Source: Podarcis liolepis
Taxonomy: Eukaryota
Reading direction: 5' to 3' (one strand)
DNA length: 64,000 nt
Assembly (NCBI GenBank): GCA_965112155.1
Contig: OZ218098.1
Part shown: positions 12,801 to 54,400 of the stretch, piece by piece
How the letters are laid out: every line of letters starts with the position of its first letter
Numbering within the stretch: the stretch's first letter is position 1
Made by a program: the position numbers and the translations under genes
Notes under the pieces: generated by a model
What the model was told of the DNA's origin: nothing
The model's input: only the letters and a program-made list of their open reading frames with translations
Database searches by the model: none

Positions 12801-15800
12801 GTCAGACTGTAGCTCCCATCATCCCTGACCACTGGACACGTTGGTTGACCAACAACATCTGAAGAGCACCATGGAAAACTGTCAGGGCCATATGCACACA
12901 CAGACACTCACAATTACACACACACCACTTGTGCTCCACGGCAGCATTTTCTGCACAATGGTGTCCACCTTACCACCCACCTCCTCCTTAATTTTGCTGC
13001 TGGAATTCACAACCACAAATCAACCAATCAATAAATTGCCAGCACGCTGACAGGTACCAAGTTTACCTGCCATTTCCGGCGAGATATGAAGAGCTTGAGA
13101 TGATCTGTACTGATGCTCTTGCCCTTGGCTAATGTCTGAAAGGAAGGGTGGAAGCAGGCAGGGTCAGAAGAACAAGCAGAGCTCTGTAGCCGGGTCAAAA
13201 CAAAGGCCTATCTAGTCCAGCCTGTTTCCCACAGTGGCCAAAGAGATGCCTCTGGCTCAGGCAGCTGGAAAGAGTTGCTTTTGCTCCCTGCATGTGTGGC
13301 AGAAGCCTTTGCTTGAAGGAACCTCTCCCACTTTGAGCTACCAAGATTTTTTCCTGCCTGGAGAAAGGCACCACCACCCAACATGGGCCCCACTTCTCTT
13401 TCTAAAGAGGCATCAGCAAATGGACTTACCTTGAACCAGGGGTGTTCCAGGGTCTGATCTGCATTGGGTCTCCTGGGAAGGAAAACAAGAATGAGTCAAT
13501 ATGTAGATACAGCATTTGCTAGTGTAGAGGAAAGCTGCAGCTAAAGCCCACACACCCCACACTTCCATACACTGCTCCTCAGCATGTCCTTTTCCTTTCC
13601 TTCTGCTTCCTCCAGCCCACCTCCAATCACTCTCCTCTCTCCCACCAAAAGCAGAATGGCTTCCTCTGATTACTTGCCTTCCAACGCTCCTTCTTCCCAG
13701 GCTTGAATCAAAGGACTGCGAGAGCATTTCCTTGCTTTCTAGAACAGCTAACAAACCTCACAGCTTAAAAAGAGTGGGATCACTCTTGCACAATCACCTT
13801 CCCCCCCCCCAAGAGGTAGGATTAAAATACATTAAATAAATAAATAAATAACACACTATTCTTGCTTTTTGGCGGGGTGGGGTTGTCCCCAAGCATTGTG
13901 TGTCTTTGGCCTCCTTCAGACAACTTTACTGAGCTGTCATCCTGATTTGCTTAAACAAAGCTTACATAGACAGAGGTTATGCCATGTCTGGTCTTCATTC
14001 CGATTTGTTTGTGGGGAGATTATACAACAATGATCGTTCATCCTCATTTGCTAGTTTGGGGTTCTTATATCTCCTTAACCATTCATTCGTCCCACACTTT
14101 CCAGTGCATTTCTCTGTAATTTTCCTAAGTGCAAAAGGTGTGTTAAAGTGGATGTAGTGCGTGTTGGCCCCTTTGGGCAGTTGTTTGGGCAGTTGTGTGT
14201 GTGTGTTCTGCAATATGTTCTTGGCACAATAACAGTCCATTAGAGATTTATTTTGGTTTCCTTTGACTTCTGTAATGCTTCCTCAATGCTATCACATTAT
14301 TGCCACCTGTAGGGGTTATAAGACTACAAAAGCTGAACAAAAGTATACCAGAATCGTTGTGGTATAAAAAAAGTCACAGGATTTCAACAGGAAGCCACAG
14401 GATCATGTGTGGCCCCCCTGAGAGCATTCTGAGCACAAATCATCATCAATACACAATAAAAAGGTAGGGGAGGCCTGGAACTCTCTTTGGCCCCACTCTA
14501 AAGTGGCTTTTCTTTCTGTGCCTCTGGACACATAGCTTTCCCTTTCTCAGAGGAGGAATAATTATAGTTGTTTTTTTACTCTCTCTGCCATGGGGGCGGG
14601 GAGTTTGTGTGTGGGGAGTCCTCTTTGCATCCCACACAGGTAAATGCCTCTATCTAATCCTCAGGGAGACCCTTAATATACCCTATTACTTACAGGCGGT
14701 CATTAACCAGTACTTTGATAACAAAGCCTTTAGCCTCTCTCGTCAGTCCTGTGAACATACTCTCCTCAAAAGCCACGTTGTAGTTGCGGATGTTCATGAG
14801 TGTGGTCTTGTCGTTCTCACCCACAAACGGTGAGATCCCTGTGAGACTGAGAGAGGGAATAGTCAGAAAATCATTGGCTGGCAGGCTTGGGGCAAGCTTT
14901 CTGGGTTTCCTATGCCCTTGCATGCAAGGATGTAGTGATGGGGTGAGGAAATTTACCAGGGTAGCTTTTCAAGGTTCCCCAAGCCATAATTCACACCCTG
15001 GAGACAGTAGAGCATGGCTCTCTGGAGAGCTGAATGGGAACACTATGTCAAAGCATAGTGGTGGAATTATCTGCTTCCAGGACAAGCAAGAGCCCTGGTA
15101 TTTCTCATTGTGCCTTCTCTTTACCATAATATGGTAGAGCTGCAAGGGAGATGGGAAGAACCTGAACAGTCCTAGCATAGTCCTCCAACCTGAGGCTTAC
15201 CATAGATATGTGATTACTCCCACTGGCCTGTAAAAAAAGAACAGACAAAATTTCAGTGCTTTGACAGGACATCTCTAGGAGGAGTTAAGTTATATGATCC
15301 AGGTGGTACCTATACTTAGTGATCTTAAGGATAGATAGATTAAATGGGATAATGGTATCAGGGTTGAGCTGGTTGAGGTTCTTTCCAACTCAATGATTCT
15401 GTGATTGTAAGGTTAGAGTCTGGACAATAGAAGGGCTATTTCAGTTGTCAGCTAAGGTGTGGTGGCTTTGTTCTGCAAAATACAGTGGTACCCCGCAAGA
15501 CGAATGCCTCGCAAGACGGAAAACCCGCAAGACGAAAGGGTTTTCTGTTTTGGAGGCGCTTCGCAAGACGAATTTCCCTATGGGCTTGCTTCGCAAGACG
15601 AAAGCCCATAGGGAAATCTCCGGGGACCTGTTTTAAATTGCTGGCGGTTGGGAGCAAAGACTTTTGCCCACAGCCGGCCTTCAGAAGAGGTCCTGGACCT
15701 CTTCTGAAGGCCGGCGGGGGGCAAAAGTCTTTGCTCCCCCCCCGCCTGACTTCCCGGGACAGCGGAGACTTCTCCGCTGCCCCGGGCGATCTTAAAATGC

Positions 15801-18800
15801 TGGCGGGCGGGAGCGAAGCGTTCGCTCCCGACCCCCAGCATTTTAAAATCTCCCCGGGACAGCGGAGGCTTCACTCCCGCCCGCCAGCATTTTAAAATCG
15901 CCCCGGGACAGCAGGGGCTTTTAAAATGCTGGCGGTCGGCAGCAAAGCCCTCCTGTCCCCGGAGCTTGCGGGGCGGGAGGTGGGAAGAAGGGCTTTTCTT
16001 CCCACCGCCAGCCTTCAGAACAGCCTTCTGAAGGCTGGCAGTGGGAAGAAAAGCCCTTGCCCCCCCCCAGCCTTCAGAAGAGGTCGGGGGACAGACTGTC
16101 CCCGGACCTGGTCTGAAGGCGGTTTCCCTAGGAACGCATTAATTGATTTTCAATGCATTCCTATGGGAAACCATGCTTCGCAAGACGAAAAACTCGCAAG
16201 AAGAAAAAACTTGCGGAACGAATTAATTTCGTCTTGCGAGGCACCACTGTACGGTAGATGGTCAAGTAGAAGCGATCTGTTTCTACAGGAGCTAAAGGCT
16301 GGAGACCCCTCTGCCAGAAGAGAGCCTTTTGGGAAGGGGGCTTACCTTCCCTCTCCCAGTTGTGAAATGTGCTAACTCATATGCCTCTGTTTTTGCTCTC
16401 TGCAAGAATACTATGTTGCTAGTGGCCCCCCTAATCTGATGAGGGAGAAGCATCTGCTGGAGTGTGTTTAATGCTTTGAAACTCCACCTATGTTCAACTT
16501 GTACTGTATGCATGTGAAAATAAACCATATGTCACAAAACAAAAGCAAGCCTTCAGAAATCAAGTTTATGACACACCCCTGGAGTTCTCACTGCTTTGAG
16601 CCTTGGGGTGCATGTAACGATAGATAGATTAGATTAGCCCCGGCTAGCAAATGGTATGACTCCATGATCAGGGAGTCCAGAGCACCAGGCCATTCTAGGG
16701 TCTGCAGTGTTTGGATTTGTAACCGTCTTCAAGAGGTCGGGATCCAACTTAAGGTTGAAACAAATACACTACAGTAGAATGGACAATAATGAGCCAGTGC
16801 ATCATGCTCACACTCCCCAAGTAAGACTTATACAAAAGTGTTTTGCACTGTCCTTAAAGGGAAACAGCATGGGCTGATCTGCAAGAGTCAACGCAACAAA
16901 ACAAGCTGCACAGTCCATGACAGGGAGCAACCCTGATGCCTCTCTTGTGCGGATTCTGCCCCATGCAAACCAGCAATTGCAAGCCCAGGTCAATTGAGTT
17001 TGTTCTTCCAATAGGCATCCCACAGTCCCAGAAAAAATCTTCTGGACTACAGGTTAAGCAAGGGCCTATCCCAGGAATTCCTCCTCCCTGAAATTGCCCA
17101 ATACTCAAGCTCAGGAATTCCCCTTTAGCTTTTAATTTCTCCTTTCTGGTGCTCCTTTCAGAGATGTGTGTGCACAGACATACATCATATTGTGCAGGTG
17201 CATCTGTTTACCAGACATCGGTGACACCGGAGACTGGACTCTGGCTGACAATCTCGGGGCCCACAAATTCGGGGGTGCCATACTTGCAGTACTGCAGCTC
17301 ATCCGGAATCAGCTCTTGGGCATTGCCAAAGTCACAGATCCGCACCTGATCGCTGCCGGGTTCAGCCAGCAGCAAGTTTTCAGGCTGTGGGAAAGGCAAG
17401 TGGAGAGGTATTAAGGAGGTGCCCCGAGAAAAAGCTGCTAAGTAAGCGAAATAATTCACAACTCTGAAATGTGACAGATACTCACCCACAATAGGCACAG
17501 ATTACAGAAATCATTCCCTTCTCCAGGGGATTCCCTACAGCCAACATTGCATTATTCACACCAGTGAGCTATGCTGTGGTCTTCAGAAAGGTGTCTAGCC
17601 CCTTTTCATGTCTACTGCTTCCTCAATGTCATGCATGCTTGTAACTATTTCCAGCAATCTCCTGAATGGAGGAGCATGTGTGTTTATTGATCGCTTAGAT
17701 TTGCACAAATCCAGAGAACTGTACCAGCAGGTCACATAAAAATTTTCAATGCCATCCATCTCCTCCAGGTTGTATGGATGGAGATCGGAAAAGTGAACCA
17801 CAACCTACCCTCCAGAGGTGGCACAACCAGGTATGGCAGGAACCTTTATCTGAAAAACGCACCCAGCCAAAGGTGAAATAAAAAGTGGCAGGTTCCTTTT
17901 CTCTCTCTTATAATAATTACAGGGTGGGGGAGCCTAGGCCACCTCTCTGTCAACAATTCTTTTGGTGAAGTGTGATATCGTAGGTGGGGCGGCATCATTT
18001 CTTATCGTGTCCCATAGAATGTGCATGCCTCCTGCCCCCATTTTCTTTCATTGTTTTGTGATATATGTGTCCTAATGGTGAGATTGTATACAAGGTGTGT
18101 CGTCTTCCTGGTGTTATTCCCATTCTGGACAGGGGATGGAGGGGTTCGTTCTTTCCTTTTCTCCCCTGTTTGGGGTTCTCTGTATACTATTCTTTACATT
18201 TATGTACTATGTGTGCTGGTTTACATGTTGTTTTGGTTTTATTGTACGGTTCTTGAAAAATCTCAAATGTGTTTCTCAGAATAAAATAACCAGACCCAAT
18301 AATTTGTTTTGAGTAAGAGAACAAAACAGAGCTCACAATCCTTTCACACAAAAATCCACTCCTGGTTATCCTCCCACCCTAAAAATGTTTTTTCTTCATT
18401 TCAGCAGTATAATTAAGGGAGGGATGCGACAGGCACCCATTATCTGCACTTTCCGGAAACAACTGAAGACATTTTTGTTCAGACAGGCTTTCCCAGCTGG
18501 ATAAATGGGTCTTTACCACAAGTGTCTACATTATACGGTTTTAGTTTTGTTTTAAATGTGTTTGCTTTTTTGTGTTTTTAACTGTTTCCTATTATCTTTA
18601 GTGCACATTGTCTTGAGACAGCTGTTCAGAAGGCAACTGACAAATCAATGATGGCAATAATAATTTTGTTGCTGTCATTGTTAAACAATTGGGGAGTCAG
18701 AAATCCTTGCCAATCTACATCAAGTGACCCAGAAATCTACTAGTAGATCACATTTCCCCTTCTGCTCACCCTTACTGTAGTTTTAATAGAATTCAAACTA

Positions 18801-39400: not shown

Positions 39401-42400
39401 GGAATCAAACCTACAACCTTGGTATTATCAGCACCACACTCTATAACCAACTGAGCTATCCAGCTGAACAAATCTACGCAGAAGAAAGTCCATCAAGTTC
39501 AATAGAAAGCTCTCCCAAGTAATGTGTGCCTAGGATTGCAGTCTCAATGCGTTTTCTAGGTAGCAGGGAAGCAGATAGGGTGATGTGAAGGTTCTTACAT
39601 TGGTTTAATGAGGCATGCCAGCCCCCAGGGCCTAAGGCAGCAGGCTATTCATGCTTCCTGCTTTAGTATAAGGAATGAATTGTAACACTTTAAACATGTG
39701 TGCCTATTTTGAATGGTCAAATAATTATGGAATCTTAAAACTTCAGCATCACAGAGACACCATCCCCCCACCCAATTATATCAGTGCAGTGATGACCCTG
39801 TTGAAAATAGGGTTGCCAGCTGACCAGAAAAAAAACTGAGCCCAACGTGCTCTCGTGCCTGTTAGAGCACCTGAATATGGAGGAACAAGCAGGTTAAGGG
39901 TTTCAAGGGATGGAGATAAACATCACCTATTTATATATGTTCATCACACTGCTATTAAAGGCACTGTTACAATGGTTGGTTGAAGGTGAGCAGCCAGTTA
40001 CAAGCACCCCCTTCTTGCTCCTGGACCACCTTGACTTCTCCCAGTGCAGCATTTCCTCCTTCCTTACCTTTAGCTGTGCTAAGCTTGCACGTGTAGATAC
40101 CACTATCATCCTCATGCACAGAGGTAAGCAGTAGCTTGCACTTGCGCCCATCGAAATGCATCTTGCACTGGAGCAGAGCAGGCTGGAGCAGGCGCCCCCG
40201 CCATAGCCAGTCCACATCCACATCAGGTGGGCCAGACACCAGGCACTCGAAGAGAGCTGCATCCCCAGCCCCCACCACCACGTCCTGCAGGGGGGCCAGC
40301 ACTGCCAAGGACTGGGTCTCAGGGTGCACTGGGGAAAAGGAGGGGAGGGGGAAGGGAGGAGGAAACGGAAAAAAAGAGAGAGAGAAAGAAAGATGCGTCT
40401 CTGAGCAATGGAACAAAAACAGGAAAAGATGCAGGGCACAAGGTGGGGGAAGCATGTTGTGAGTATTCATGGCTAAGTGAGATTGCCAAGCTGGCCAACA
40501 TCTTGTTGATTGCCAGCAAGAGTAAAGGGTGTGATCTCTTCCCCATCCCTACTGTTAAGTGTCATGCAGTACTCTGACTCCTTTGGTTCAATATTCTCAT
40601 AAGGATAATAATGCTAAGCTAGATTAAACTAGCAATGACTGACTTCAGTGTGCTGAAACTTCACTCACTGCATTTCTGGCTATGTTCAATGTCTATTAGT
40701 TTCTTCAATTGCATAAGTATAATAAACAAAAAAACCCTAGGGCTTCTGCACTCTCCCAGAGTAGCTCTGAGGCATGGCTAACTTTCTACAAGACCTGCAC
40801 AACTCACTGGGGGTAACTAATACCATCACCTTGACAAATAACTTTAAGCTGCTCAAGATGCAAAGGAGGAGGAAGCATATGTATCTTGCACTGCCTGTTC
40901 CTCCCCTACATCTCAAACACCCAAAGCCACGATAAATGCTGAATGGAAAAACCTGATGCAATAACTCCAGTTCTAGTGCTAAACCAGGATGCAAGACTAA
41001 GAACTAAGGAGAAGGAATAAGTTGCTTCCCCCATGGCCCAGTGTCATCTTTCCTCCACACGTCAGGGAACCAACGGCCTGTAAGTTTTGCACACTTCAAA
41101 CTACCAAGTTAAGACAAATCCGAGCAAATACTTCTGTGTGTACTGTGTTTAATACTTCAACAAAATACTACTTGAGGCTGGCAACCCATTAACCACTGCA
41201 ACCAGGAATGAGTAGCAGGAGAGAGGAAGGCAGCCATATTCAGAAGCAAATTAAATGTGAATGAAAGAATGATGGGGTGTGGAGAACACAAGAGCAGGAT
41301 ATTGGGGTAAGAAGGGGACGTGGGGAAAAGGGAGACAGGGGTCTGCGCTAGGAACAAACCACACAGCACTTTTACCAAACAAAACAGACTTTATTTCTTC
41401 TACAAAAAAGGGGTTCACTGTAGCCCAGCCCCTGTGAGACCTTCCCAGAGCGGGGTGGGCACAATGGTAGTAAGAGACTGCATCCCTGGCCTCCTTCATT
41501 AAAGATGCTCCGTAGCCCAGCAGGCTCAAGTCTAGTGGGGTGCCATTATTTCCCTGAGCCCTCCTCCATCCCACACAACTCAGGGGCAAAGGTCCCTTCC
41601 CAGTGAGCTTGTGCTGTCCAGACTTCGTGCAGATAAGGATGCTGCCTTGCGTAAAGCTGAGCATGTAGTCTTCTGCCCACAGACACCTTCTTGGATTTGA
41701 GGGAAAGCAAGGCCTAGATTGGGCCTCCTCCTTCCAAAGCTGCCTCATTTTAGTGTGTGTGGTCCATGGGTGAGCAGCACAAGCCTCTAGAGAAGCTGGC
41801 CAGGGAGCAGACAAGTTAGTGCTCTGCCCCAGGCCCCTGGAAACAGGAGTGTGGAAACGGGGGCAAGAAGACATGGACACATGGAAGAAACAGAGAGCAC
41901 CACACATTGGCCACAGTTCAGGCCAGACAGAAATGGATGCCGGCACGGGGATTAAACACCATCAGCACCTAGAGGTGTAACACCTGGGTACAGGCACAGT
42001 GCCCACCACTGAGATTATATGCCCTAGAGTGGATCACATGGAGACTCGATTGTACAGAGAGGCTTCCTGCCCACGCACTAAGGAGATGCCACAGATTGGT
42101 TCAGCTCACGCAGCTAAGGGCAGCCCAGAACTACTCTCCCACCCACAGTGGCTCACTCCTCCAGCTGCAGCCAGGCCCTGTGGGTCCAGGTGAGTCTCGG
42201 CGCTGGCCATCCAGTGGGTGGGGGCAGGAGCCAAGCCTTGCCAGTCTGGTTTGTTCAGTCAACGCTGGGAGCAGAGGCAACTGCCCAAGTTGTCTGGCTA
42301 GAGCGGCCCAGGGGCCAAGCAGTACCTTAGCTCACTCCCCCTGTACAGACAAAAACACAGTCAGCAAGCAAAGGGTTAGTGTAGCATGGTGGACACAGAG

Positions 42401-45400
42401 GCAAAGCACAGACAAATTCATACATGCCTGGTCAAAGCAAAGGGTTTGCCTGGCAGATACACAGATGTAGACACTGTCTGGCAAAGCAAAAGAGCAAGCA
42501 CAGTGCATTTACACACAGACACACACTCCCATTTGCCTGACAGTGTCCCCTTCTTCCCAAGCCAACCAGTCCAACACTGAAGCCAGGCAGAACCCATTAT
42601 AGGAAGTGTCAGACTCTTCTTCCTATCTAGGTAAAACATGCCACCTGGGAACATTCTGCAGATCCAGTGATCCTAGGAACAGACCCTACAAGTCCTGTTC
42701 ACTCAGGACCTGAAAACAGCCCTGCCTCTATTTCCCTAAAAGGTGATGCAATAGGCCAATCAGAGGGATTTGCATTCAGAACAAGGAGGCAGCAAGAGAG
42801 GCTGATCAAAGTGGAAAGGGCACCTTTTAAATGGGTATAGGGGAAAGAACCAAAAGTCCTGCCAGACTGAGGTGAGCCAATACTAGCATATGCCCTCAGC
42901 TACCAATGACAGAGAAAAATACAGTGCTGGTTCCTTCCAGCCTGCTCCAGTTCCTCCCTACACAAATCCCACTCAGGCCCATATTAGGCATTATGGGGTC
43001 AGGTAACAGAGGCTGAGAAGGGAGCCTCTCCTTTTACTAGATGTAACCAGCATGGGGATAGCATCCCATTTAGGCTCACAGGCACTGTAAAGAGATGCCC
43101 ATGTGGACAGGAGCTGGTTGCTCCAGTGCCAGTCCTACCATTAAGCAAAGCGAGGCAGCTACGTCAGGCAGGAAATGCTGGGGTGGCAACAGCCCCACTA
43201 CAACCATTCTGCCCGAGTCCTATCAACTAGCCTGCTCTGCGCCCTGTAAAGCAACCTGCAGCCCTCAGGTACAGTGGAGGATGCTGCCCCAGCATCAGTA
43301 CTGAAGAAGTAATTTTACTGTAAGTGGTCAGATTCGGTACATGGAATGGGGAGGCACATCCTGCCTTTTGTCTCAGGCAGCAAAATGCCTGGGGTTGCTC
43401 CTTCACCTGGTGGTAGTGACAATGCCTGGCGCATTGCCCCATCTGCACTATACATTTAAAGCAGTATCATAACACTTAAGCCTTAGCTTCCCTAAATAAA
43501 ATCCTGGGAAGTGTCATTTATTAAGGGTGCTCAGAGTTGTTACCTCTATTCCCTTCACAAAGCAACAGTTCCCAGAGTGGCTTAACAATAGAACTCTCTT
43601 CCTGGCAAACTCTGGGAATAGTAGCTCTCTTGAGGAGAGTAAGAGTTTCCTAATACCTCGCAGCAACCTTGACAAACTACAGTTCCCAGGATACTCTGAG
43701 GGAAGCCATGGCTGTTTAAAGTGTTTTGAATGTATAGTTTCTGCTGGAAATGAACTGGAAAGGTGGCAGACCACCACTGGGACCCAGTTCTGGGTACCAC
43801 AGGTTGGGGGGGAAAGGCAGAACCAAGCCAAGAAGAAAAAAGCATAGTAGGATTGAGGGGTCAGGGAGGAGTACTGAGTACTGAGAGCTGGCGGTAAAAC
43901 TTGCTGCTGCTCATTGCCCCAATGATTAGCGTGGAAGCCACTGGCAGAGACAGAGGCTGTCTTTATGGGAATGTGGGAGCAGTACATTGGTATACACAGC
44001 CATCAGGCCCCCTCAGTGGGCTATCTCTCTCGTCTCTTTCCTTTCTGAGCAGAGGCTCACGGTTCCTTTCTCCAAAATTCCACAGCAGCTGCCACTGTTT
44101 CAGCTCAAGGTGGGACGGGGGAGGATTGGGAGAACACAGGCAGTTGGTGCTCGGTTGCTAAGCAACAGCTGAATGCTCTTCTTCCCATCTGGAACAGGCC
44201 TCCAAAGGGTCTCAAGGCAGTTGCGCTTGCCATGCTCAGAAGAAGGCAGCTACCTAGGGAGGGCTCCTCAGGAGAACAAGCCTAGCCTAGTGCAGGGACG
44301 GTCCAACTTTTCCTACCTACTTCAATACGGAACCTGCGGGCCGCACGCTGTCTTGTTGTGCCAGGGTGGGGGAGAGCGAAAGGCCAAAATTTGACACCTC
44401 ACCCCGCAACCTCATGCTGCCTGGAAGGAGGCGCAAGGCTTTGGGCAGTCTCCTAAGGCCCTTCCAGCTTCTTCTCAGAGCTGAGAAAGTGCTAACTTTC
44501 TGACCCTGTCAGAGCCCTCACACTTCCTTCCCAAAGCCCAGAGCCTTTGGGAAGGCAGTGCAAGGGCTGGAAGGGTGAGAGGGTGTCAAATGTTGCTGAG
44601 GATTGCCAAAAAACGGGCTTGTGTTGGACTGCCCTAGTGGCTAGTGGCTCAGAGCATGCCCACAGAGCTGAAGAGTAGTGAAGTGGGTGGCCCACTTAGC
44701 CCTTTCCTCTTTGTTTATTCACACACACTGTCCCCACCCACAGCTTTCCCACCCATGGGCGGGTGAAATTTTGAGTGTACAAATAAATGGAATGGAGAAA
44801 AATGAAGAAGCATCCCCTTCCTGTTGCTGTTCTTACTAGGGTGCTTTCAGATGACTGGTGCTAATTAGCATTCACCCTCATTTGTTTACAGGAAGATTAG
44901 AGGATGTTGGCTATTTAATGAACATTCATCCTGATTTGTTTGTGGGAGGTTAAATGATGTTGCATCATTTAAGCAAGTGTTACCCTATACTACCCAGTGT
45001 GCTTTCCCATCACTTTCCTTATTGGAAAGAGTCCTATCTTTGGGGGGTGTAGAGACCTCCCAACCAACTATAATTGTGCAACCTGAAATTTCCCAGTATG
45101 TGACTGAATCCCACCCAAAAATAGACTGGGAGCACTCCTAATCCCAGCATCAAAGGCTGATCTCAATCCCAGCATCATAAGCATCCACTATCCCAAAACG
45201 AAGTATCTCATCTAGCTTGGCCCCATTCCCTCCTTCCAGGGGTCCCCAGTTCTAAGGAGGCAAGTAAAATTCCCAGGATTCTCTAATGAAAGTCATGAAT
45301 AGTGACAGTCCAAAACATTTTGGTGCCTGAGGCAGGAAATCCAAATCTATTAATTAATTTGTTGCTTTTTAACATTACTTAATAGCTGCTACCAGAGGTG

Positions 45401-48400
45401 GCACACCTCACCCTATCCATGCCACTTAAAATGAAAGAAAAACCAATATAAGCTTGTAGCATAGAATAATGGTTTAGCTTACTGTTGATTTTAATTAGTT
45501 TTAAATGTTTTCTAAGTACCTGTTTAACTGTCTTTTATTTATACTTTTAATGTTTCTTTTTTTCTGGTCAAACAGCTTTGTGGTTTTATTACTATAAAGT
45601 TGTGTAAGTTTTGCTAAATAAAATAAATAAATAGTCAAGTCCCCAGTTCTAATCTGCCTTTTACTACACTGATCTGGAGGCCCTCAGCAAGCCACTATCT
45701 TCTTAACCTCAAGCCCACCTTGGCAACACGGGTATAACTACCATACAAGTCTGCTGTAAGGATTTCGGAAATGCTTTCAACATTCAAAGAGTGTTAAAGA
45801 TATCCTAAGTAGTATTTATGTTCAGGAACTCATGATACCTTCTTGCTTTCAGCTGAACCTCTCTCCTCTCCTTGCCCCATTTACCAGAGTAGTCCACAGA
45901 AACCTGATTGCTTGTGCCTCTTGATAATCTGCTGTTAGGCTGAAGTTCTAAACTGGAGCTCTAAATTTCTTAGACTCATGATGAAAAAAGGGCAAAATTA
46001 AGTCAAGGGCTGTCATGAATTCTAGGGGCAGGAGACAGAGTTACAATACAACCAGAAACAAGCAACCATGGAGCCACAGGCTACTTGTGGGCAGAGGATT
46101 CATATAGGTCACAGGATGTTGGGGGGGGGGGGGAGTCAGAAGCATGCTTAGATGAGTGCGTAAACCAAGGAAATAGGCATGCAAGCAGGATATTCTGGGG
46201 ACAGCCCATGGCAGGCAAGCATTAATCTTCATGCTCTGTGGCTTCCAAAGGTACCTTGTACATCAAGCTTGGCCTCACACTGCTTGGTGCCATACTCATT
46301 GATGGCCTTGCAGGCATAATAGCCAGCATCAGTGCACTCCACCATGCGGATATGTAGGCAGAAAGATCCATCGTCCTCCTCCACAGCAGAAATGCGCCGC
46401 CCATACTTTATTGGATGCCTGTTCTTCAACCTAGAGGACAGAGGAGAGGGTCTGAGAGCCTGCAGTGCTTGCAACTCCATCCAACTTCACAAAATGCTTC
46501 TTCTGTCATCTCATCTCACCATCCCTCCTCCAAAGCAGCATGCCTCAGGAAGAGGCTACATACTTCATTTGGACGGTCAATTCTGCATTGGCCTTCCCCC
46601 AACCTTGTTGCTACTACAAACATAGCTTTTGGTACAATATAGTCAAGGCAGTTCAAGCCATAAGATCAGAGATCCCCCTTTTTTTTTTTGCCATTACATC
46701 CAGTCCTATCAGTCTCAGGTCTGATTCTTGATACATTCTGGAAGGCCGAGGACCTGCTTTCTTTTTGCCATCCCACCACTTACATACAAAACAAACCATT
46801 TTCAGGTTGGATGGGTCTTGTGCCATTTGGAAAGCAGCCTTGTCTGTTTAATATTTTGCCAGTCTACATATCACACAGTTGTTAGTCAGTTGTGGAGTAC
46901 TGAAGGCCAGACAGGAAAAAATAAAATAAACCCAACACTCTTCTTGATGTACGCAAGTTCCCTTACTGGTTGCCTGAGAGAGATTCTTATTTTGCAAAAC
47001 TGGGAAAGCTTCGCCACCCATATCATCCCAGGACAACATGGCTACTTGTGAAGTTATGCTGTATCATAAAACCCACTCACCAGTGCACAATGGGCTTTGG
47101 CTCTCCCTGTACCCGAATGCGCAGGACCACATCCTGCCCCTCCAGTACTTCCTGGTCACTCAGTGTCACCTGCAAGAGAGAGTGTCAGGATCATGCCAAC
47201 TGCAAAGGGAGATGGGAAGCAAGTTCTCTTTAAGGCAGGGGGCAGGGATAAGCAGAGTGCAGGGCAAGCTCTGCTAGGTGCAATACCTTCAGTGGAGTAA
47301 AAGCTGGAATTTACTTTTTGCCTCAAATGTCTGAGCATGTCAAAAGCCCAGGGCCCCCAACCCCAATCCAAGGGAGTGCCGGTTTATAAGCTGAATCCTC
47401 ATTCAAGTATGCAAAAGCCATAGGTTACTTTCCACTGTCATGCCCTCCTGCGCTAGTCTCACCACCTGCTCACCTCAAAGGACGGGGCTGCCTTGAAGTT
47501 GATGCCCACATGCACCGGGGGTGGGCCAATCTCGGATCGGGGTTGCACTTTCATGACAGGGTGGTGCCGCGGGGTGCCAGACTCAGGGAACTCTTCCAAG
47601 GGGCTCAGGTACTCTTCATCTGATGTGACAGGGCTGCTGAGCTCGTGATGGGGTACCAATCGGCTGTGGGACTCTGCGGGAGCTAGACAGGCAGAAGAGG
47701 GTTAGGGCATGGCTTGTGCACAGCACATTGAAGCAGCAAAGCTCTCCAGCTCAAGGGGGAAAGCAGCACCAGGACATAGCCGCCCACCTAGCAGCCAGGG
47801 CTCATATACAGGGATTTTAGTTGACGGTTTAGCCACAAGCACAGAGTAAATGATATAATCTAGCTTTCTACATGATAGCCCAGTGCACCTACAGTGTATT
47901 CTAAGGGATGAGGTTCCCATTTGCTTTTGCTTTTAAAAAAAATAGCACATGAAGAGGGGGCACATACAAAAAGTAATAACACAAATTGACCATTGGAATA
48001 CATTGGTTCCTTCAAAATAGTAATAGAAATCCATTGCAGCAGGAAATGTTTGGTTACTTATGCTATCTTTAGATACTCTTACTGGGGCATTATGGCTACC
48101 AGCTTCCTAGCAGGCTCCATCCCACTCTGCTGATGTGGGATGTAACACATTGTCAACTCTTCATACATGATTTTCATCATTCAAACATTACTAGAGCAGC
48201 CCCAGATGGAAACTTGGGGAAGTGGCAAGCATATAATGTAACAGTGGCCCTGGCCCTGAAACAAAAACACAGACCCTAAGGGTGTGCGATGGTTAGAGTG
48301 TTTTCATTCTTTGCTTTCCCCTGCTCCTTCTTATGTATGCAAGTTTCCAGTTTCCTGCCCCTACCTAAGCCAACTAACACCCCATTAGTTCTTTCCATCC

Positions 48401-51400
48401 TTCCTCTTGACTGTTCCACTATGCCCTATTTTGCAATTAGGACACTGCACTTAGCCTAGCATGAACATTGTTATCTCAAACAGACCTTTGCTGCTTCTGT
48501 GGAATGGAGCCTAGAGGCTGATTTAGAACAGAACCACACAATCAGAAACATCACATGGTATACAGCCCTCCTAGGCCCGTATCATTCAAAATGCAGTTGA
48601 AGGATCACATGTTTGAATGCTACCCGTTTAATTAAATTAACTATCTTTGTAAGTAGAAAAGTAAGAGAGACTAAGTCAGAACCCTCCTTCTTCCTGACAT
48701 ACTTTCCACAGACATGGAGGTTGTTTTGGTTTTTCTTTTAATGACAAACATGTGAACTTCCCTCCTCCTGCATTCTGAAGAGGCAGGACTGCACCATGTG
48801 ACATTTCTGAATTATGTTTGTCTTCATAACTGAGATGGTAAAATCCTTCTGCAAGGATTTTATCAATTCAGTTTTCTATGGAGAGGCTTGTATCCAAACT
48901 CACCCCCATATGACAACTATCAGTTCAAGAAAGAATGTTAGTTTTCAGATATTCATCAGCCATGAAGCTCACCTTGGGCAAGTCTTACCTACCCCAAAGG
49001 GTCATTGTGAGGACAAAACAAAATAAAATTGGGGCTGAGGGGAAACCATTATGTTTTCCTGAAATCCTTGGAGGAGGAGTGAGATTAAAGTGTATTAACA
49101 AATAAATAAACGTAGTAATGACCTACAATTTTTTGACTAATTTTCATGCATTTGTGTATAATGGGGCCCTTTCAGAGAAACAGCTCTTTGTGGAAATCTG
49201 TTGTGGCAAAGTCACGAGGTGAAAAGTTTGGCACCTCAAATATGCATATATGAATCTGCACAAACAACATCTCTATTAGTGTGTAATTTGCATAGTGCAT
49301 TGTTTAGAATAAATAAATGTAAATAATTTGATCATCTGGGTTGTGAAACTCTTCTTGCAGTTAGGCTCTAGTCTATATTCAATCCTCTTACCCAGAAAGA
49401 GGCAGAGTGAAGAAACAGAAACAACATGTCATTTTCTCAGTACTGCTTTAGAAGATATCAAATCCAACACTGCCTGTAACCCTGCCAAGTCCCATGGGCA
49501 TACAGGGAAGCCCACGGCTGATATATATCTATGCCATCTCCATCTGGTAAAAATAAAGACTTTAAACAGTCATGAATCAGGCAACTCCAATCATGGGCGC
49601 CAGTACTCTTTTTCTTGTTGGCAGCATCGTTCCTGGCTTGCTCTCCCTGAAAGGGGCCAAGGTGACATTAGTAGCTGGGACAACTACAACTTGCAGTGTA
49701 TGCATTGTGAGAAGAGCAGGCCTTGTTGTGGGGCCAGTTAGTGGAAATAGTCTTGTGGCAATTTCTGTGGCAATGCTGCCCTTCAAGCTGAGTAAGAATG
49801 GGTGGGGTGTTTACAAGAAAATCTACAGAGACAGGATAGGTTTCTTAGCCCTTTGAACAAAATAGAAGAAAGAAGCAGAGGTGTGTTCGATCCAGACAAA
49901 AGGGTGAGTCTTTCAAAGCCTTCCATCATGCTCTGCTGCAGGCAGGGAAAGATTATCTTGTGTGGATGGGAATGGCCTGCCTTGTAGTTCCTTGCTTCCC
50001 CCTATCCCCAAAGACAAGGTAAAACACCTTAGTATAAGAGTCTCTCTCACCTCCAAGTTTCTGGACAACAAGGTAAGAGGCCTAGAGAGAATTTGAGGCG
50101 GGCTTTCCCTTCTGCAGCCCCATTGCTTTGGGAGGTTATAGCCCAATAAATTCTCAGCCCCCAGAGGGGCACCCAAAGCAGAATCCCATTTCTTCCTACC
50201 TATAGGGCAGATGTGGTGAAGTTGGAGGGTCCCTTCACACCATTCAGTTGTACAAACAAAGGGTTAATGGGAGCAAGAGACACTCTCCCTTCTCCGCTTC
50301 ACCCATCTCTGTTCCTCTCAAAACGCCCACCTAGTTGTTGAAAAGTTGCGTTCCCTCTCCCTGCCGAGTTCCCAGTTCCAAACCCACTAAAGCTGCAATC
50401 CTATACACACTTACCTGGGTTTAAGTTCCATTGAACGCAGCGGGACTTACTTCCGAGTAAACATGCATAGGATTGCAGCGCAAGAACGCAGGGAACAAAC
50501 GGCGCGCCCCTCCCGAGCCTGCAATCGGCGCGGCAAAGAGGATCCTACAGCCATTTCCCGAGGATGATCTCTCTCTCTCTCTCAATCCCCGATTTTCAAA
50601 CACAGCGTCCGACACGGAGGAGATGAGTGGGCAAACGGATCCTCAACGGAGGCGCCATAGGCCGGACAGAATCCAGGAGCCTCTTCGGAACCGCCTTCCC
50701 TTGAGCCACAGCCGAGGAAGGCATCTGCGCTCCAGACAGACGCCGACCCCAGCCCCTCCAGGGCTCACATTTCAGATCAACAGACGGGCGACCTCATTTG
50801 CATCCTTTCGGATAATTCATTTGCACGTGCCCAGGAACGCTTGCAAGCTGCAGGCGCCGCTGACACGGGTTTCCCTGCGGAGTTTGTGGTCCGGAACACG
50901 GATCAGGAATCGGAGTCGGTCCGCCAGCCAGCTCGACCTCCCCCGCCGCCACCTCGTGGGGTTGGTGCTGAAAGCCCAGCAGTCCAGGCCGTCTCTCCCT
51001 TCTTCCCCGCATTCAAGACTGCTGCTGGCTGTTTGTCAGCCAGGCTGGCCTAAACCAAGCCTTGTAGGGTAAAGGCAGCCTCATCTCTCTTTCAGCAATA
51101 GCAGCGGCAGCAGCCTGAGGCACCACAAGGTTGACAGAAAAAGACCTAGCCTAGGATGCTAACTAAGCCCCAAGGCACGAAACTGCTTCTCCCCAAACTT
51201 GGCCTGGGAAGGAATATGACTCTACAACCCTCCCTTGGCCTTCAGGGATTCAGCTGGTCCTCTCTGGGCTGCCTTCACTGCGTTCATCACACACTTATAA
51301 TGATATAATAATAATTTATTATTTGTACCCCACCCATCTGGCTGGCTTTCCCCGGCCACTTACCTGGCCGCACAGTCAAGATGGCACTGCAGCAGGCCTC

Positions 51401-54400
51401 GCCCACTTCATTGGTGGCACAAACTGTGTAGAGGCCGGCATCAGCCGCACGGGCACTCCTGACCAGCAGGGTGTGGCGTTCCCCCTCTGCTTTGATAGGG
51501 CGAGTGGTGCTGCTCCGAAAGGGGACGCCATCCTTTCGCCATGACACTGTGGGGAAGGGGCAAGTGGGTAGGAGATCAGAGCATGTGGGGACACTTCTGT
51601 ACATACAGCACCTCCCCCCATACATGGCACTTCCCACTTTATCCACTGACTGCTGGAACGGTGTCCTTTTCAGAGAGGAGGGGTGAGGAACCTTTTGCAA
51701 CCTGAGAGCCACATTCCCTTCTGAGCAACCTTCCAGAGGCCACATGGCAGTGGTGGGCAGGGCCACAGCCAAACAAATGCATCTCCCCCACTTTGTACAG
51801 TAGGCTAGTTTCTACACACGTTCACACTCCCCTCTCTGGCCTCCATCCAGATAAGAAGCATGATCAGAATTCAAGGACACATTTCAGCCAGGCAAAAACA
51901 CTTGAAGAGGGTATGCAGCAGGGCCACTGAGGGTAATGGCCTGGGATGGTGGTTATTTCCCCTGGGTTATTTCCCAGCCATAATACAGGACTACAGTTTG
52001 GCAGCACCACAGGTGTTGCTGCTGGAAAACTGCATCACAGTAAAAGTTATCAGCTTTTGAAATAGAACATTCTGGTGCAGGGGTAAGGGTTGAATTATTT
52101 GCATGAAAGCAGAGCTAGGCGAAGGGAGGGAAAGTCTAGCAGGATTGTTGCCTGCCTATCAAAGGATTGCAGCTAAAAATAAAATAGCATTGCCCTTTGT
52201 TTTTCTTTCAACAAAAGCAAAAAACCTGGTTAGGCCATCCGCCCTCCCCCCCCCCCCCTTCTAGTCAATTGCACCATTACTTGCCAGTCACATTACTTGG
52301 TACTATTGGGCAGCTGGAATTGCAACCATTTCTCTCCCCCAGCCTTGTGTTTTTCCTCCTAGTGTTGCCACCAGGACCACATGGCTCTGGACCATATTCA
52401 AAGCAGAATCCTTACTGATGTGAGCTAGCCAACATACACAAAAACAAATAAAACCAATTATCCCCAGAGATCTGTGGAAATGAAGACACCTGTGTGATCC
52501 AAGAGACAACAGCAAAGGTAGAGTAGATGGCCCCCCATCCATCTCCTGGCCCCTCTCACACTGACATGCACTGGGCACCCCACAGGTTTGCCTATGCATG
52601 CTCATCATCACTCATCCCACACTCTTCCTGGTACTCCATGCACTTGCCTTCTGGGGAAGGGTTGCCTGTGATGATGCATTTGAACAGCACTTCTGTTCCA
52701 GCTACGACTGTTACATCCTGGATAGGGATCTCAAAGATGGGGCGTTCCAGTGGGTCCTCACCCGCCGAGATGTAGGAATCATCAGAAGATTCTGTGCAGA
52801 GAGAGGGAGAAAGAGCAGCTGCAAAAGAGGTGGTGTGGAGGAGGGGAAAAGGTCCACAACTTGCATGGATATAAAACTTTGCACTGCCTTCTGGGAAGGA
52901 ATGTGTTTAAATCTTAAGCTCTCTTTTTCACATGCACTGGTTCTGTTATGCCCCGAGAGAGTGAGAGCCCTTTTATGTGCTGATGATTACAGTTTGCTCA
53001 AAATCCTTAATCTCCCCAAGTCTCTCTCTAGCACAGTGTGGATTCTTGATCTATTGCTACCTTGCTGAGTCCAAAGGATTAGAGCAGCCTCCTGAGTGGC
53101 ACAGTTCACTCTGCCTTGACGCAGATAGCCACCTTCACAGGTCTCTAAGAATAACTAAAGAGGATGAGCTTCATTTCACTTGTTTAGAGAGGGGGGAAAT
53201 TTAGAACCCTCATAAAACTACTGTTACAGCTCAATGCATTCAAAGCTGACACTAGTCATAAATGTGTCTAAATTTATGATCACTTATTGAGTCAGGCTAC
53301 CTGGGAAGGAAGTTGGAGGACTTATTTTTCTGTCAGTAATTTGGTAGACTCAAGCAGCCCCTTGGTATATACACTACTTCTGTGCATTCAAGATGTGTGC
53401 ATTTCTCAGCCTCACTTCCAGTCTGTAAAATGGGGATACTAAGGCCAGCCTACTTACCTTACAAGGCAGTAGCAAGAATGCATGAGGAATGTACCTAAAA
53501 GCTAAGCAAATGAACAAAACCTGCACTAAAGAGCACGTATTTCCATTCTTGACTCAGAAGCACTGAAAATCCTGTCACAAAACCTGTGTTAGCCATTAGG
53601 AGACTACAGTTCTCTGTAACATACACATAACCACAGTGAACTGTGAACTAATTAACTGTTGTACATGTTGCACCATGTCTTGTATCTGCCAGCTACTTGA
53701 AGGCCCTGATGAAGTTGCCACACTCACTCGGCCGCCTCAGAAACTGGATCTCAAGTTCATGCTCCTCTTTCCAACTTCCATTGATCAGAGGCTGTCCCTT
53801 TGTTTTATGGAAAGGAACAAAAATGACAGAGGGCCAAGGATAGTGAGGAGGGGGCTTATCCACACTTAGCTTTTGCCCCACTTTTTCCAGGCACAGACCT
53901 GAGCTTTAAAGCTCCATGTCCAGCCATTTGTTTGTATTTGCTGCAGAGCTTTCCCTGCAAAAACCTGCTCTTCCCCACACCCTATGCCAGGTGTGGAAAC
54001 CCTTTGGTCCTCCAGATGTTTCTGTACTACAATCCCCATCTTCCCCATGCTTGCCAGGGCTGATGGGAGTTGTAGTTCAGCAACATCTGGAGGTCCAAAG
54101 GATCCCCACACCTGCCCTATGCTAAGCTTATGCACCAATGACTCTTCCAGACAAGGCCTGGCTGAGATTACATCCCAGATGCTGATGACATGGGCAGAAA
54201 TGTGAGAAGCAGTCAGAACAGATAAGGGCAAGCCAAGACTGAGCACTTACCAACCCTCTCGAGGAGCTCATACAATCCCAGGCATGCATGATGCTCTGGC
54301 CTGAATCCTAAGGGTCTTGCCTACAGTGGAGGAAAGGACATTACAGGCCTCTCCATTTCTGTGGGAAGTTGGGTGGAGTTCTCCCCACAGCATACAGCAC

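What the first reader, a model, noticed from the sequence alone, without database searches (positions are those of the whole stretch)
42341..42510. Candidate MBNL/QKI splicing switch guarding the alternative last exon
Seen on the gene strand: 11 YGCY motifs in 42363-42500 (about 2 expected at uniform composition), ACTAAC at 42375-42380 and GCATG at 42423-42427, all just upstream of the 42340 acceptor. Known: YGCY clusters bind MBNL, ACUAAY binds QKI (and resembles a branch point), GCAUG is the RBFOX core, and upstream binding usually represses an exon. Inference: a cis-module that makes striated muscle skip the terminal exon (full kinase SPEG) while smooth muscle or brain include it. This is the most mechanistically suggestive element in the window.
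Basis: partly seen in the sequence, partly recalled or inferred. Interest (0 to 1): 0.7.

Follow-up and report, generated by a model that had tools for sequence, protein, structure and literature searches.

The report
Splicing-control patch before SPEG's short ending
In a lizard's SPEG muscle-kinase gene, an unusually dense patch of short UG/UGC words lies just before an early stop exon that RNA reads show is used, and it likely binds common splicing regulators (MBNL, perhaps CELF or QKI) that would tip the choice between the short kinase-less and the full-length protein, an ordinary kind of control that my literature searches did not find mapped for this gene.

Summary
On the minus (SPEG) strand there are 11 YGCY in 42363-42500, the highest count of any 138-nt stretch on either strand and of 30 SPEG acceptors (others: mean 3.3, max 9). 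The 42340 acceptor is real: RNA joins exon 46255 both to it and to the kinase-path exon 40328. It encodes ...QGGVS-stop, as do tegu and Anolis database proteins; human APEG-1 ends ...RGE.

Dinucleotide shuffles give 7.4 YGCY (P=0.014), because the patch is UG-rich; UGU is more enriched than YGCY (19 vs 4.6). ACTAAC is the best branch-point match, single, without a QKI half-site and with a spare CUGAC; published data link that arrangement to weaker QKI repression. GCATG is background (7 of 29 controls). Among close relatives the patch changes slowly (2/220 vs 28/860 sites, P=0.04) and no motif is hit.

SPEG is on a published myotonic-dystrophy polyadenylation list (site and direction unseen), while one human tissue analysis reports the opposite tissue direction. 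Deep orthologues and CLIP data could not be tested.

Verdict: a likely MBNL/CELF-type silencer with possible QKI-SF1 competition before a known alternative last exon. New member of a known kind.

The parts
46255..46430 (-). Last shared SPEG exon (176 nt, second half of the APEG-1 Ig domain); its donor reads GTACCT, weak by consensus
   Evidence: tblastn and junction fit to Zootoca SPEG; match to human APEG-1 1U2H, E 7e-13; RNA joints
42470..42547 (-). Predicted hairpin, 15 of 16 Watson-Crick pairs, enclosing a 46-nt UG- and UGCU-rich loop
   Evidence: Inverted repeat I1; z -2.8 on a window chosen after the fact; 1 of 12 such stems in the window; no substitution in 4 runs; whole 42320-42530 region folds no better than shuffles, z 0.29
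42511..42526 (-). UG-repeat-like tract at the 5' edge of the patch
   Evidence: Sequence; UGU 19 and UGUG 9 in 42341-42530 vs control means 4.6 and 1.9, 0 of 29 controls reach them
42363..42500 (-). Cluster of 11 UGCY (8 UGCU) motifs, candidate MBNL sites; 11 of the 14 GC steps in 42341-42510 sit in YGCY context
42423..42430 (-). Last upstream AG (CAG at 42430-42428, a possible cryptic acceptor) followed by the single GCATG; starts an 85-nt AG-free zone
   Evidence: no read uses this AG (low depth); organism B has TAG here; 2 of 29 controls have AG-free zones of 84-85 nt
42375..42381 (-). CACTAAC: best branch-point candidate (6 of 7 to the U2-pairing consensus, A at -36) and a single QKI core motif without a UAAY half-site
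   Evidence: branch use is inferred, not mapped
42360..42366 (-). TGCTGAC: second branch-point candidate (5 of 7, A at -21) overlapping the last YGCY
42341..42359 (-). G-interrupted pyrimidine tract and acceptor CAG (13 of 20 pyrimidines, against 20 of 20 at the competing 40328 acceptor)
   Evidence: acceptor use shown by RNA joints
41370..42340 (-). Alternative last exon of the short SPEG isoforms (APEG-1/BPEG type): codes G-G-V-S-stop (stop ends 42327), then about 950 nt of 3' UTR; 3' end approximate
   Evidence: Joint 46255-42340 in 3 of 4 runs and in X5; contigs end at 41402 and 41441; translation; tegu and Anolis proteins end GGVS
41390..41404 (-). UGUA (41404-41401) and AATAAA (41395-41390) polyadenylation signals, with a GU-rich stretch downstream
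   Evidence: Sequence; RNA cover stops in this bin; cleavage site not mapped
40068..40328 (-). Competing internal exon that continues to the kinase-containing SPEG isoforms
   Evidence: Joint 46255-40328 in 3 of 4 runs

Best explanation
The roughly 220 nt before 42340 are the 3' splice-site region of SPEG's alternative last exon, which RNA shows is spliced in competition with the kinase-path exon, and its dense UGCY/UG words likely form an intronic silencer that MBNL proteins would bind to weaken this acceptor. Shown: the two competing junctions, the motif density, a weak G-interrupted pyrimidine tract next to a near-perfect branch-point match, and a perfect pyrimidine tract at the rival acceptor 2 kb downstream. 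Inferred: because this acceptor leans on its branch point, proteins loading on the UGCU motifs at -30 to -23 and upstream can block U2AF/SF1 and let the spliceosome pass to 40328, giving kinase-containing SPEG. UG-binding CELF-type proteins probably compete on the same patch. QKI competing with SF1 at ACUAAC is a possible second layer that fits the tissue pattern better than MBNL does, but the site layout is suboptimal for it. Where repression is low, the exon is spliced and cleaved near 41370, giving APEG-1/BPEG. The direction (repression in mature striated muscle) is inferred from MBNL's positional rule and from the mouse fetal-to-postnatal heart switch.
For: Both junctions occur in RNA: last exon X21 4 reads, X24 2 reads, X10 contig; kinase path X23 4, X24 1, X10 contig. 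Highest YGCY count of 30 SPEG acceptors and of all sliding windows; all 11 are UGCY and 8 are UGCU, MBNL's preferred word (PMC13044900 passage). Only acceptor of 30 with ACTAAY near the branch region. Among close relatives 2 substitutions in 220 nt vs 28 in 860 nt of upstream intron, one-sided Fisher P=0.038, none in a YGCY, ACTAAC or GCATG, and no indel. The exon's GGVS ending is shared with tegu and Anolis proteins. SPEG is among the 80 genes with altered polyadenylation in myotonic dystrophy muscle, as re-listed from Batra 2014 in bioRxiv 10.1101/728881. Mouse heart shifts from Apeg1 to Speg-alpha/beta after birth (PMC8199188), the period in which MBNL activity rises. QKI is high in muscle, low in neurons and falls with smooth-muscle differentiation. 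Speg is cited as a CELF1 CLIP target in mouse muscle, site not given.
Against: Dinucleotide-matched expectation is 7.4, so the specific YGCY surplus is modest (P=0.014, post hoc). An apparently constitutive SPEG acceptor (47682) has 9 YGCY and another (35205) has 8. A degenerate 40-nt internal duplication (P about 0.01; 1 of 29 controls scores higher) could have doubled motifs neutrally. Several motifs are predicted paired (mean unpaired probability 0.01-0.7). MBNL is abundant in smooth muscle and brain, which include the exon. SpliceImpactR reports proximal last-exon use in human left ventricle and distal use in cerebellum (figure not seen, so which exon is meant is unverified). In RAI14, strong QKI repression needs two ACUAAC and is relieved by converting one to ACUGAC. 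No Speg event at this exon appears in the Mbnl-knockout or DM1 tables I could search, though rMATS does not score last exons (recalled).
Confidence: 0.5

Rival explanations
1. The functional signal is UG-richness, read by CELF-family or other GU-binding proteins (RBM24/38, TDP-43; specificities recalled); the YGCY count is largely a by-product of many UG steps in an A-poor tract.
For: UGU 19 vs control mean 4.6 (sd 2.8, max 13) and UGUG 9 vs 1.9 (max 6), a larger excess than YGCY; TG steps 34 vs at most 25 in 29 controls; dinucleotide shuffles already give 7.4 YGCY; Speg cited as a CELF1 CLIP target.
Against: 11 of 14 GC steps are in YGCY context, against 101 of 291 at control acceptors; YGCY still exceeds dinucleotide shuffles (P=0.014); CELF and MBNL often share targets, so the two readings can both hold.
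Confidence: 0.2
2. QKI-SF1 competition at the ACUAAC branch point is the main tissue switch, and the surrounding motifs are accessory.
For: Only ACTAAY among 30 acceptors, at -40, inside the -60 to -20 zone where ACUAA is enriched for QKI-repressed, SF1-activated exons; QKI is high in muscle and low in neurons and differentiated smooth muscle, which matches the classical isoform map.
Against: Single ACUAAC, no UAAY half-site within the patch, and a spare CUGAC branch candidate at -21; this layout gave relieved repression in RAI14 reporters. No SPEG row in the 11 of 20 supplementary files of that paper that were searched; 3 papers mention both Speg and QKI and none concerns this by title or abstract start.
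Confidence: 0.15
3. The patch is an ordinary long branch-point and pyrimidine region that gained motifs through a local duplication and UG drift; isoform choice is set elsewhere (polyadenylation strength, elongation rate, promoter context).
For: Degenerate duplication 42465-42431 / 42399-42360; other acceptors reach 8-9 YGCY and equally long AG-free zones; constraint is marginal; no direct evidence of regulation found in 10 paper searches.
Against: The window-wide maximum of two independent motif classes falls exactly before the one demonstrated alternative terminal acceptor; no tandem repeat; the four mouse isoforms combine two starts with two ends (inferred), so the 3' choice needs control of its own.
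Confidence: 0.15

Closest known systems
SPEG/APEG-1/BPEG alternative last exon of mammals (PMC8199188; PDB 1U2H)
   Same: Same gene, same position after the same Ig-domain exon, short tail then stop, kinase-less product; human chain ends ...VRGE at the same junction.
   Different: The lizard tail is GGVS (shared with tegu and Anolis). The cis-elements that control the mammalian exon were not found in print by my searches, and tissue use in this lizard is unknown.
MBNL-repressed exons with clustered upstream YGCY (positional model, PMC13044900)
   Same: Clustered UGCU/UGCC motifs over the branch site and next to the pyrimidine tract, upstream of a regulated 3' splice site.
   Different: Here the exon is terminal, so splicing is coupled to cleavage; binding and response are untested; the patch is also strongly UG-rich.
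QKI/SF1 branch-point competition (RAI14 exon 11; PMC13004596)
   Same: ACUAAC at -40, within the enriched zone; expected skipping in muscle.
   Different: RAI14 has tandem ACUAAC at -34 and -43, both needed for strong repression; SPEG has one ACUAAC plus a non-QKI CUGAC.
MYLK/telokin-type loci
   Same: A muscle kinase gene that also yields a small single-Ig protein in smooth muscle (PMC1352370).
   Different: Telokin is the C-terminal domain of its kinase; APEG-1 also needs early termination at this alternative last exon.

Membership tests
SPEG APEG-1/BPEG alternative last exon | Lies in a SPEG orthologue directly after the APEG-1 Ig-domain exon | tested here: met
   97% identity to Zootoca SPEG over 451 aa and 35 exon-level matches; 1U2H match
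SPEG APEG-1/BPEG alternative last exon | Spliced in RNA in competition with the next internal exon, with an early stop and its own poly(A) signal | tested here: met
   Both joints in RNA; stop after GGVS; AATAAA 41395-41390 where cover ends
SPEG APEG-1/BPEG alternative last exon | Included in smooth muscle and brain, skipped in striated muscle | not testable with these tools
   Runs carry no tissue label; literature disagrees (vs 27, 69)
MBNL-repressed exon | Clustered YGCY (UGCU-preferred) upstream of the 3' splice site, above background | tested here: met
   surplus over dinucleotide background is modest (P=0.014)
MBNL-repressed exon | Motifs conserved across species | tested here: inconclusive
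   Intact in 4 runs of close relatives, P=0.04-0.10 for reduced change; no distant orthologous DNA obtained
MBNL-repressed exon | Direct MBNL binding (CLIP or in vitro) | not testable with these tools
   No CLIP data reachable
MBNL-repressed exon | Use rises on MBNL loss | tested here: inconclusive
   SPEG on a second-hand DM polyadenylation list, site and direction unseen; the Speg event in Mbnl-knockout neurons is at a different exon
QKI/SF1 branch-competition target | ACUAA(Y) at -60 to -20 of the acceptor | tested here: met
   ACTAAC at -40 to -35
QKI/SF1 branch-competition target | Bipartite site (second ACUAAY or UAAY half-site nearby) for strong repression | tested here: not met
   One YTAAY only in 42330-42560; second branch candidate is CTGAC (compare)
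QKI/SF1 branch-competition target | ACUAAC is the branch point used; response to QKI loss | not testable with these tools
   No lariat or knockdown data
RBFOX-regulated exon | (U)GCAUG enriched or conserved near the splice site | tested here: not met
   One GGCATG; 7 of 29 control acceptors also have GCATG; 92 copies on this strand of the window
Decayed simple repeat or mobile element | Tandem periodicity or copies elsewhere in the genome | tested here: not met
   No TRF array; single genomic match (that search skips simple repeats); a short two-copy degenerate duplication is present

The most novel reading that the evidence does not exclude
This patch is an amniote-wide, structured switch (hairpin-presented UG/UGCU loop plus an MBNL-flanked ACUAAC branch point) through which MBNL, CELF and QKI jointly decide whether SPEG is made with or without its kinases, so that MBNL sequestration in myotonic dystrophy diverts SPEG to the kinase-less ending and contributes to triad and cardiac defects.
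Probability: 0.2. Interest if true: 0.62.

Novelty: new member of a known kind. Interest (0 to 1): 0.32.

Why it matters
SPEG loss causes centronuclear myopathy and cardiomyopathy (PMC8199188), and the choice at this acceptor decides whether a transcript encodes the kinases at all. The isoforms have long been described, but I found no paper naming the cis-element or factor behind the 3' choice. A 220-nt candidate with named motifs makes that question testable with one minigene and with existing MBNL, CELF and QKI knockout data. The mechanism class is textbook, so a splicing specialist would find it plausible, not surprising.

Tried and rejected
Orthologous DNA: a scan of metagenome contigs with the 40069-40326 exon gave 1 locus from 210 candidate stretches, L002, a 28-residue 50% match that is not a SPEG orthologue. 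The genome tool has no relatives for this genome. So conservation in mammals and birds is untested.

Mouse Mbnl-knockout lead, rejected: PMC12148930 lists a Speg exon (chr1:75387797-75389104) with dPSI +0.91 in both single-knockout neuron sets. I first took it for this last exon. Its size (1307 nt; human counterpart 1298 nt) and the 144-nt exon after it match the large early coding exon (lizard 55852-54459, then the 144-nt exon 52791-52648), so it does not bear on this finding. It is also absent from the double-knockout sheets.

Smooth-muscle array tables (PMC5062968) hold 8 Speg splicing rows, none at this exon by my reading of the coordinates. No SPEG row in PMC4703843 supplements or in the searched files of PMC13004596. 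Batra 2014, Wang 2012 and Wang 2019 are not held; their tables could decide the MBNL question.

Homopolymer error at the exon start: considered, because one G fewer would give the human-like G-E-stop. Rejected: joints skip exactly 3914 nt, no indel is seen in 4 further runs, and tegu and Anolis proteins end GGVS.

The 169-nt RNA contig over the patch (X10) is not a distinct small RNA: X5 shows similar low cover along most of the intron stretch laid (depth 5-6 vs 70 on the exon), as expected of pre-mRNA or DNA. Rfam gives nothing near a gathering score. Motifs for RBPMS (CAC), NOVA (YCAY) and PTBP1 (UCUU/CUCU), all recalled, are at control level. No listed holder run is on record as RNA, and tissue is unknown, so run-to-run junction ratios were not used for direction. 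Four look-ups of earlier scan findings gave nothing relevant.
Full report
Setting. The window carries most of a SPEG gene on the minus strand. A 451-aa part of its large exon is 97% identical to Zootoca vivipara SPEG, and that protein maps to 35 exon-level matches from 61641 down to 638. The genome is 1.57 Gb. The nearest named proteins are lacertid, so this is a lacertid lizard.

Observation. One of 63,862 minus-strand windows of 138 nt and none on the plus strand reaches 11 (mean 2.1). Base-composition shuffles give 3.0 and never reach 11 in 20,000 trials. For a fairer control I placed the other SPEG acceptors: 29 of 34 junctions fitted the Zootoca protein well and 5 were dropped. They carry 3.3 +/- 2.1 YGCY in 160 nt, at most 9 (acceptor 47682); this acceptor has 11 and is the only one with ACTAAY within 60 nt. 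GCATG is background: 7 of 29 controls have one in 190 nt. There is no tandem array and no second genomic copy. A degenerate 40-nt internal duplication (42465-42431 and 42399-42360; P about 0.01; 1 of 29 controls scores higher) and a 15-of-16-bp hairpin (42547-42470; 1 of 12 such stems in the window) are present.

The exon is real. Reads and contigs join exon end 46255 to 42340 (X21 4 reads, X24 2, X10 contig depth 11.5; none in X23) and to 40328 (X23 4, X24 1, X10 depth 24.5; none in X21). X5 also shows the first junction. Cover runs to about 41400, beside UGUA and AATAAA (41395-41390). The spliced frame ends ...LDVQGGVS-stop. Database proteins of Salvator and Anolis end in QGGVS and an unnamed one in QGRVS; the human APEG-1 chain ends ...LEVRGE at the same junction. 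This is therefore the APEG-1/BPEG last exon, shared at least across lizard lineages. Counts are small, X21 is a single-cell library and no run has a tissue label, so the direction of regulation cannot be read from them.

Constraint. Four runs of close relatives (organisms A twice, B, D) show 2 substitutions in 42341-42560 (220 nt; both in organism B) against 28 in 42561-43420 (860 nt), one-sided Fisher P=0.038. One of 41 difference rows was not displayed, and X5 does not cover 42657-42700. Neither change touches a YGCY, ACTAAC or GCATG, and the first 350 nt of the exon show none. This is mild support. I could not obtain DNA of distant orthologues.

Anatomy and mechanism. Shown: a non-consensus donor (GTACCT), a proximal acceptor with a G-interrupted pyrimidine tract (13 of 20) but the joint-best branch match of 30 acceptors (CACTAAC, 6 of 7, A at -36) and a spare TGCTGAC (A at -21), and a distal acceptor with a perfect tract (20 of 20). 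Two UGCU motifs lie between the two branch candidates and a third just upstream of the first. Inferred: such an acceptor is easy to block. MBNL prefers UGCU, represses from upstream of a 3' splice site by covering the branch site or pyrimidine tract, and can select last exons (PMC13044900, passages). In mouse, Apeg1 marks vascular smooth muscle, Bpeg brain and aorta, Speg-alpha/beta striated muscle, and one study reports a switch from Apeg1 to the kinase forms in the postnatal heart, though others find all four in fetal heart (PMC8199188, passages). SPEG is among 80 genes with altered polyadenylation in myotonic dystrophy muscle, seen only as a gene list re-printed from Batra 2014 (bioRxiv 10.1101/728881, passages and section 6). 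I put about 0.5 on an MBNL-centred silencer.

Against this reading. MBNL1 mRNA rises with myocardin in smooth-muscle cells, though its protein did not change there (PMC9343278, passages), and Mbnl2 dominates adult brain (PMC12148930, passages); these are tissues that include the exon. QKI fits the tissue map better (high in muscle, low in neurons, reduced by myocardin), but in the RAI14 model strong repression needs two ACUAAC and is relieved by changing one to ACUGAC (PMC13004596, passages), which resembles the natural layout here. SpliceImpactR states that human left ventricle uses a proximal SPEG last exon and cerebellum a distal, kinase-coding one (preprint and PMC13478751, passages; supplementary figure not seen). 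Apeg/Bpeg mRNA is measurable in adult mouse heart and skeletal muscle (PMC10502019, passages), so skipping is not absolute at tissue level. A striking Speg row in Mbnl-knockout neurons proved to be a different exon. The UG excess points to CELF-type or other GU-binding proteins (specificities recalled); Speg is cited as a CELF1 CLIP target without a site (PMC5992612, one passage).

Comparison with the known. It works like a standard upstream MBNL/CELF element, possibly with QKI-SF1 competition. Membership as the APEG-1 last exon is met. Membership as an MBNL target rests on motifs only. The bipartite QKI test and the RBFOX test are not met. Ten searches of the held library found no paper that maps a cis-element for this exon; most subscription papers are not held, bioRxiv supplements are closed, and several supplementary files were unread or cut, so this is not proof of absence. 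PMC1352370 was seen as passages; PMC5062968, PMC4703843 and PMC5538435 as supplement searches only; Batra 2014, Wang 2012 and Wang 2019 not at all.

Verdict. Observation confirmed; interpretation partly supported. A credible, testable but ordinary candidate regulatory element before a known alternative last exon. Interest 0.32; new member of a known kind.

Noticed in passing
window 42327-42340 (-): The lizard short SPEG isoform ends G-G-V-S, shared with tegu and Anolis, where human APEG-1 ends G-E; a one-base difference at the start of the exon would account for it.
   Followed up: yes
window 47683-47842 (-): The acceptor of the exon that holds the likely APEG-1/SPEG-alpha start codon also has 9 YGCY (7 UGCU) in 160 nt upstream, the second-highest of 30 SPEG acceptors.
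   Followed up: partly
window 50500-51000: CpG-rich stretch in the intron before the 47682 exon; a candidate for the internal APEG-1/SPEG-alpha promoter. No reads were laid over it.
   Followed up: no
window 41991-42340 (-): The first 350 nt of the last exon show no substitution in 4 runs of relatives, against 10 in the distal 620 nt of the 3' UTR; the UTR holds a second ACTAAC at 41820.
   Followed up: partly
window 50392-50479, 54009-54093, 15570-16240, 43436-43700, 44500-45120: Inverted-repeat or multi-copy stretches that look like short mobile elements in SPEG introns.
   Followed up: no
window 42428-42430 (-): A possible cryptic acceptor 87 nt upstream of the used one ends the upstream copy of the degenerate duplication and stays YAG in organism B; no read uses it at the depth seen.
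   Followed up: partly
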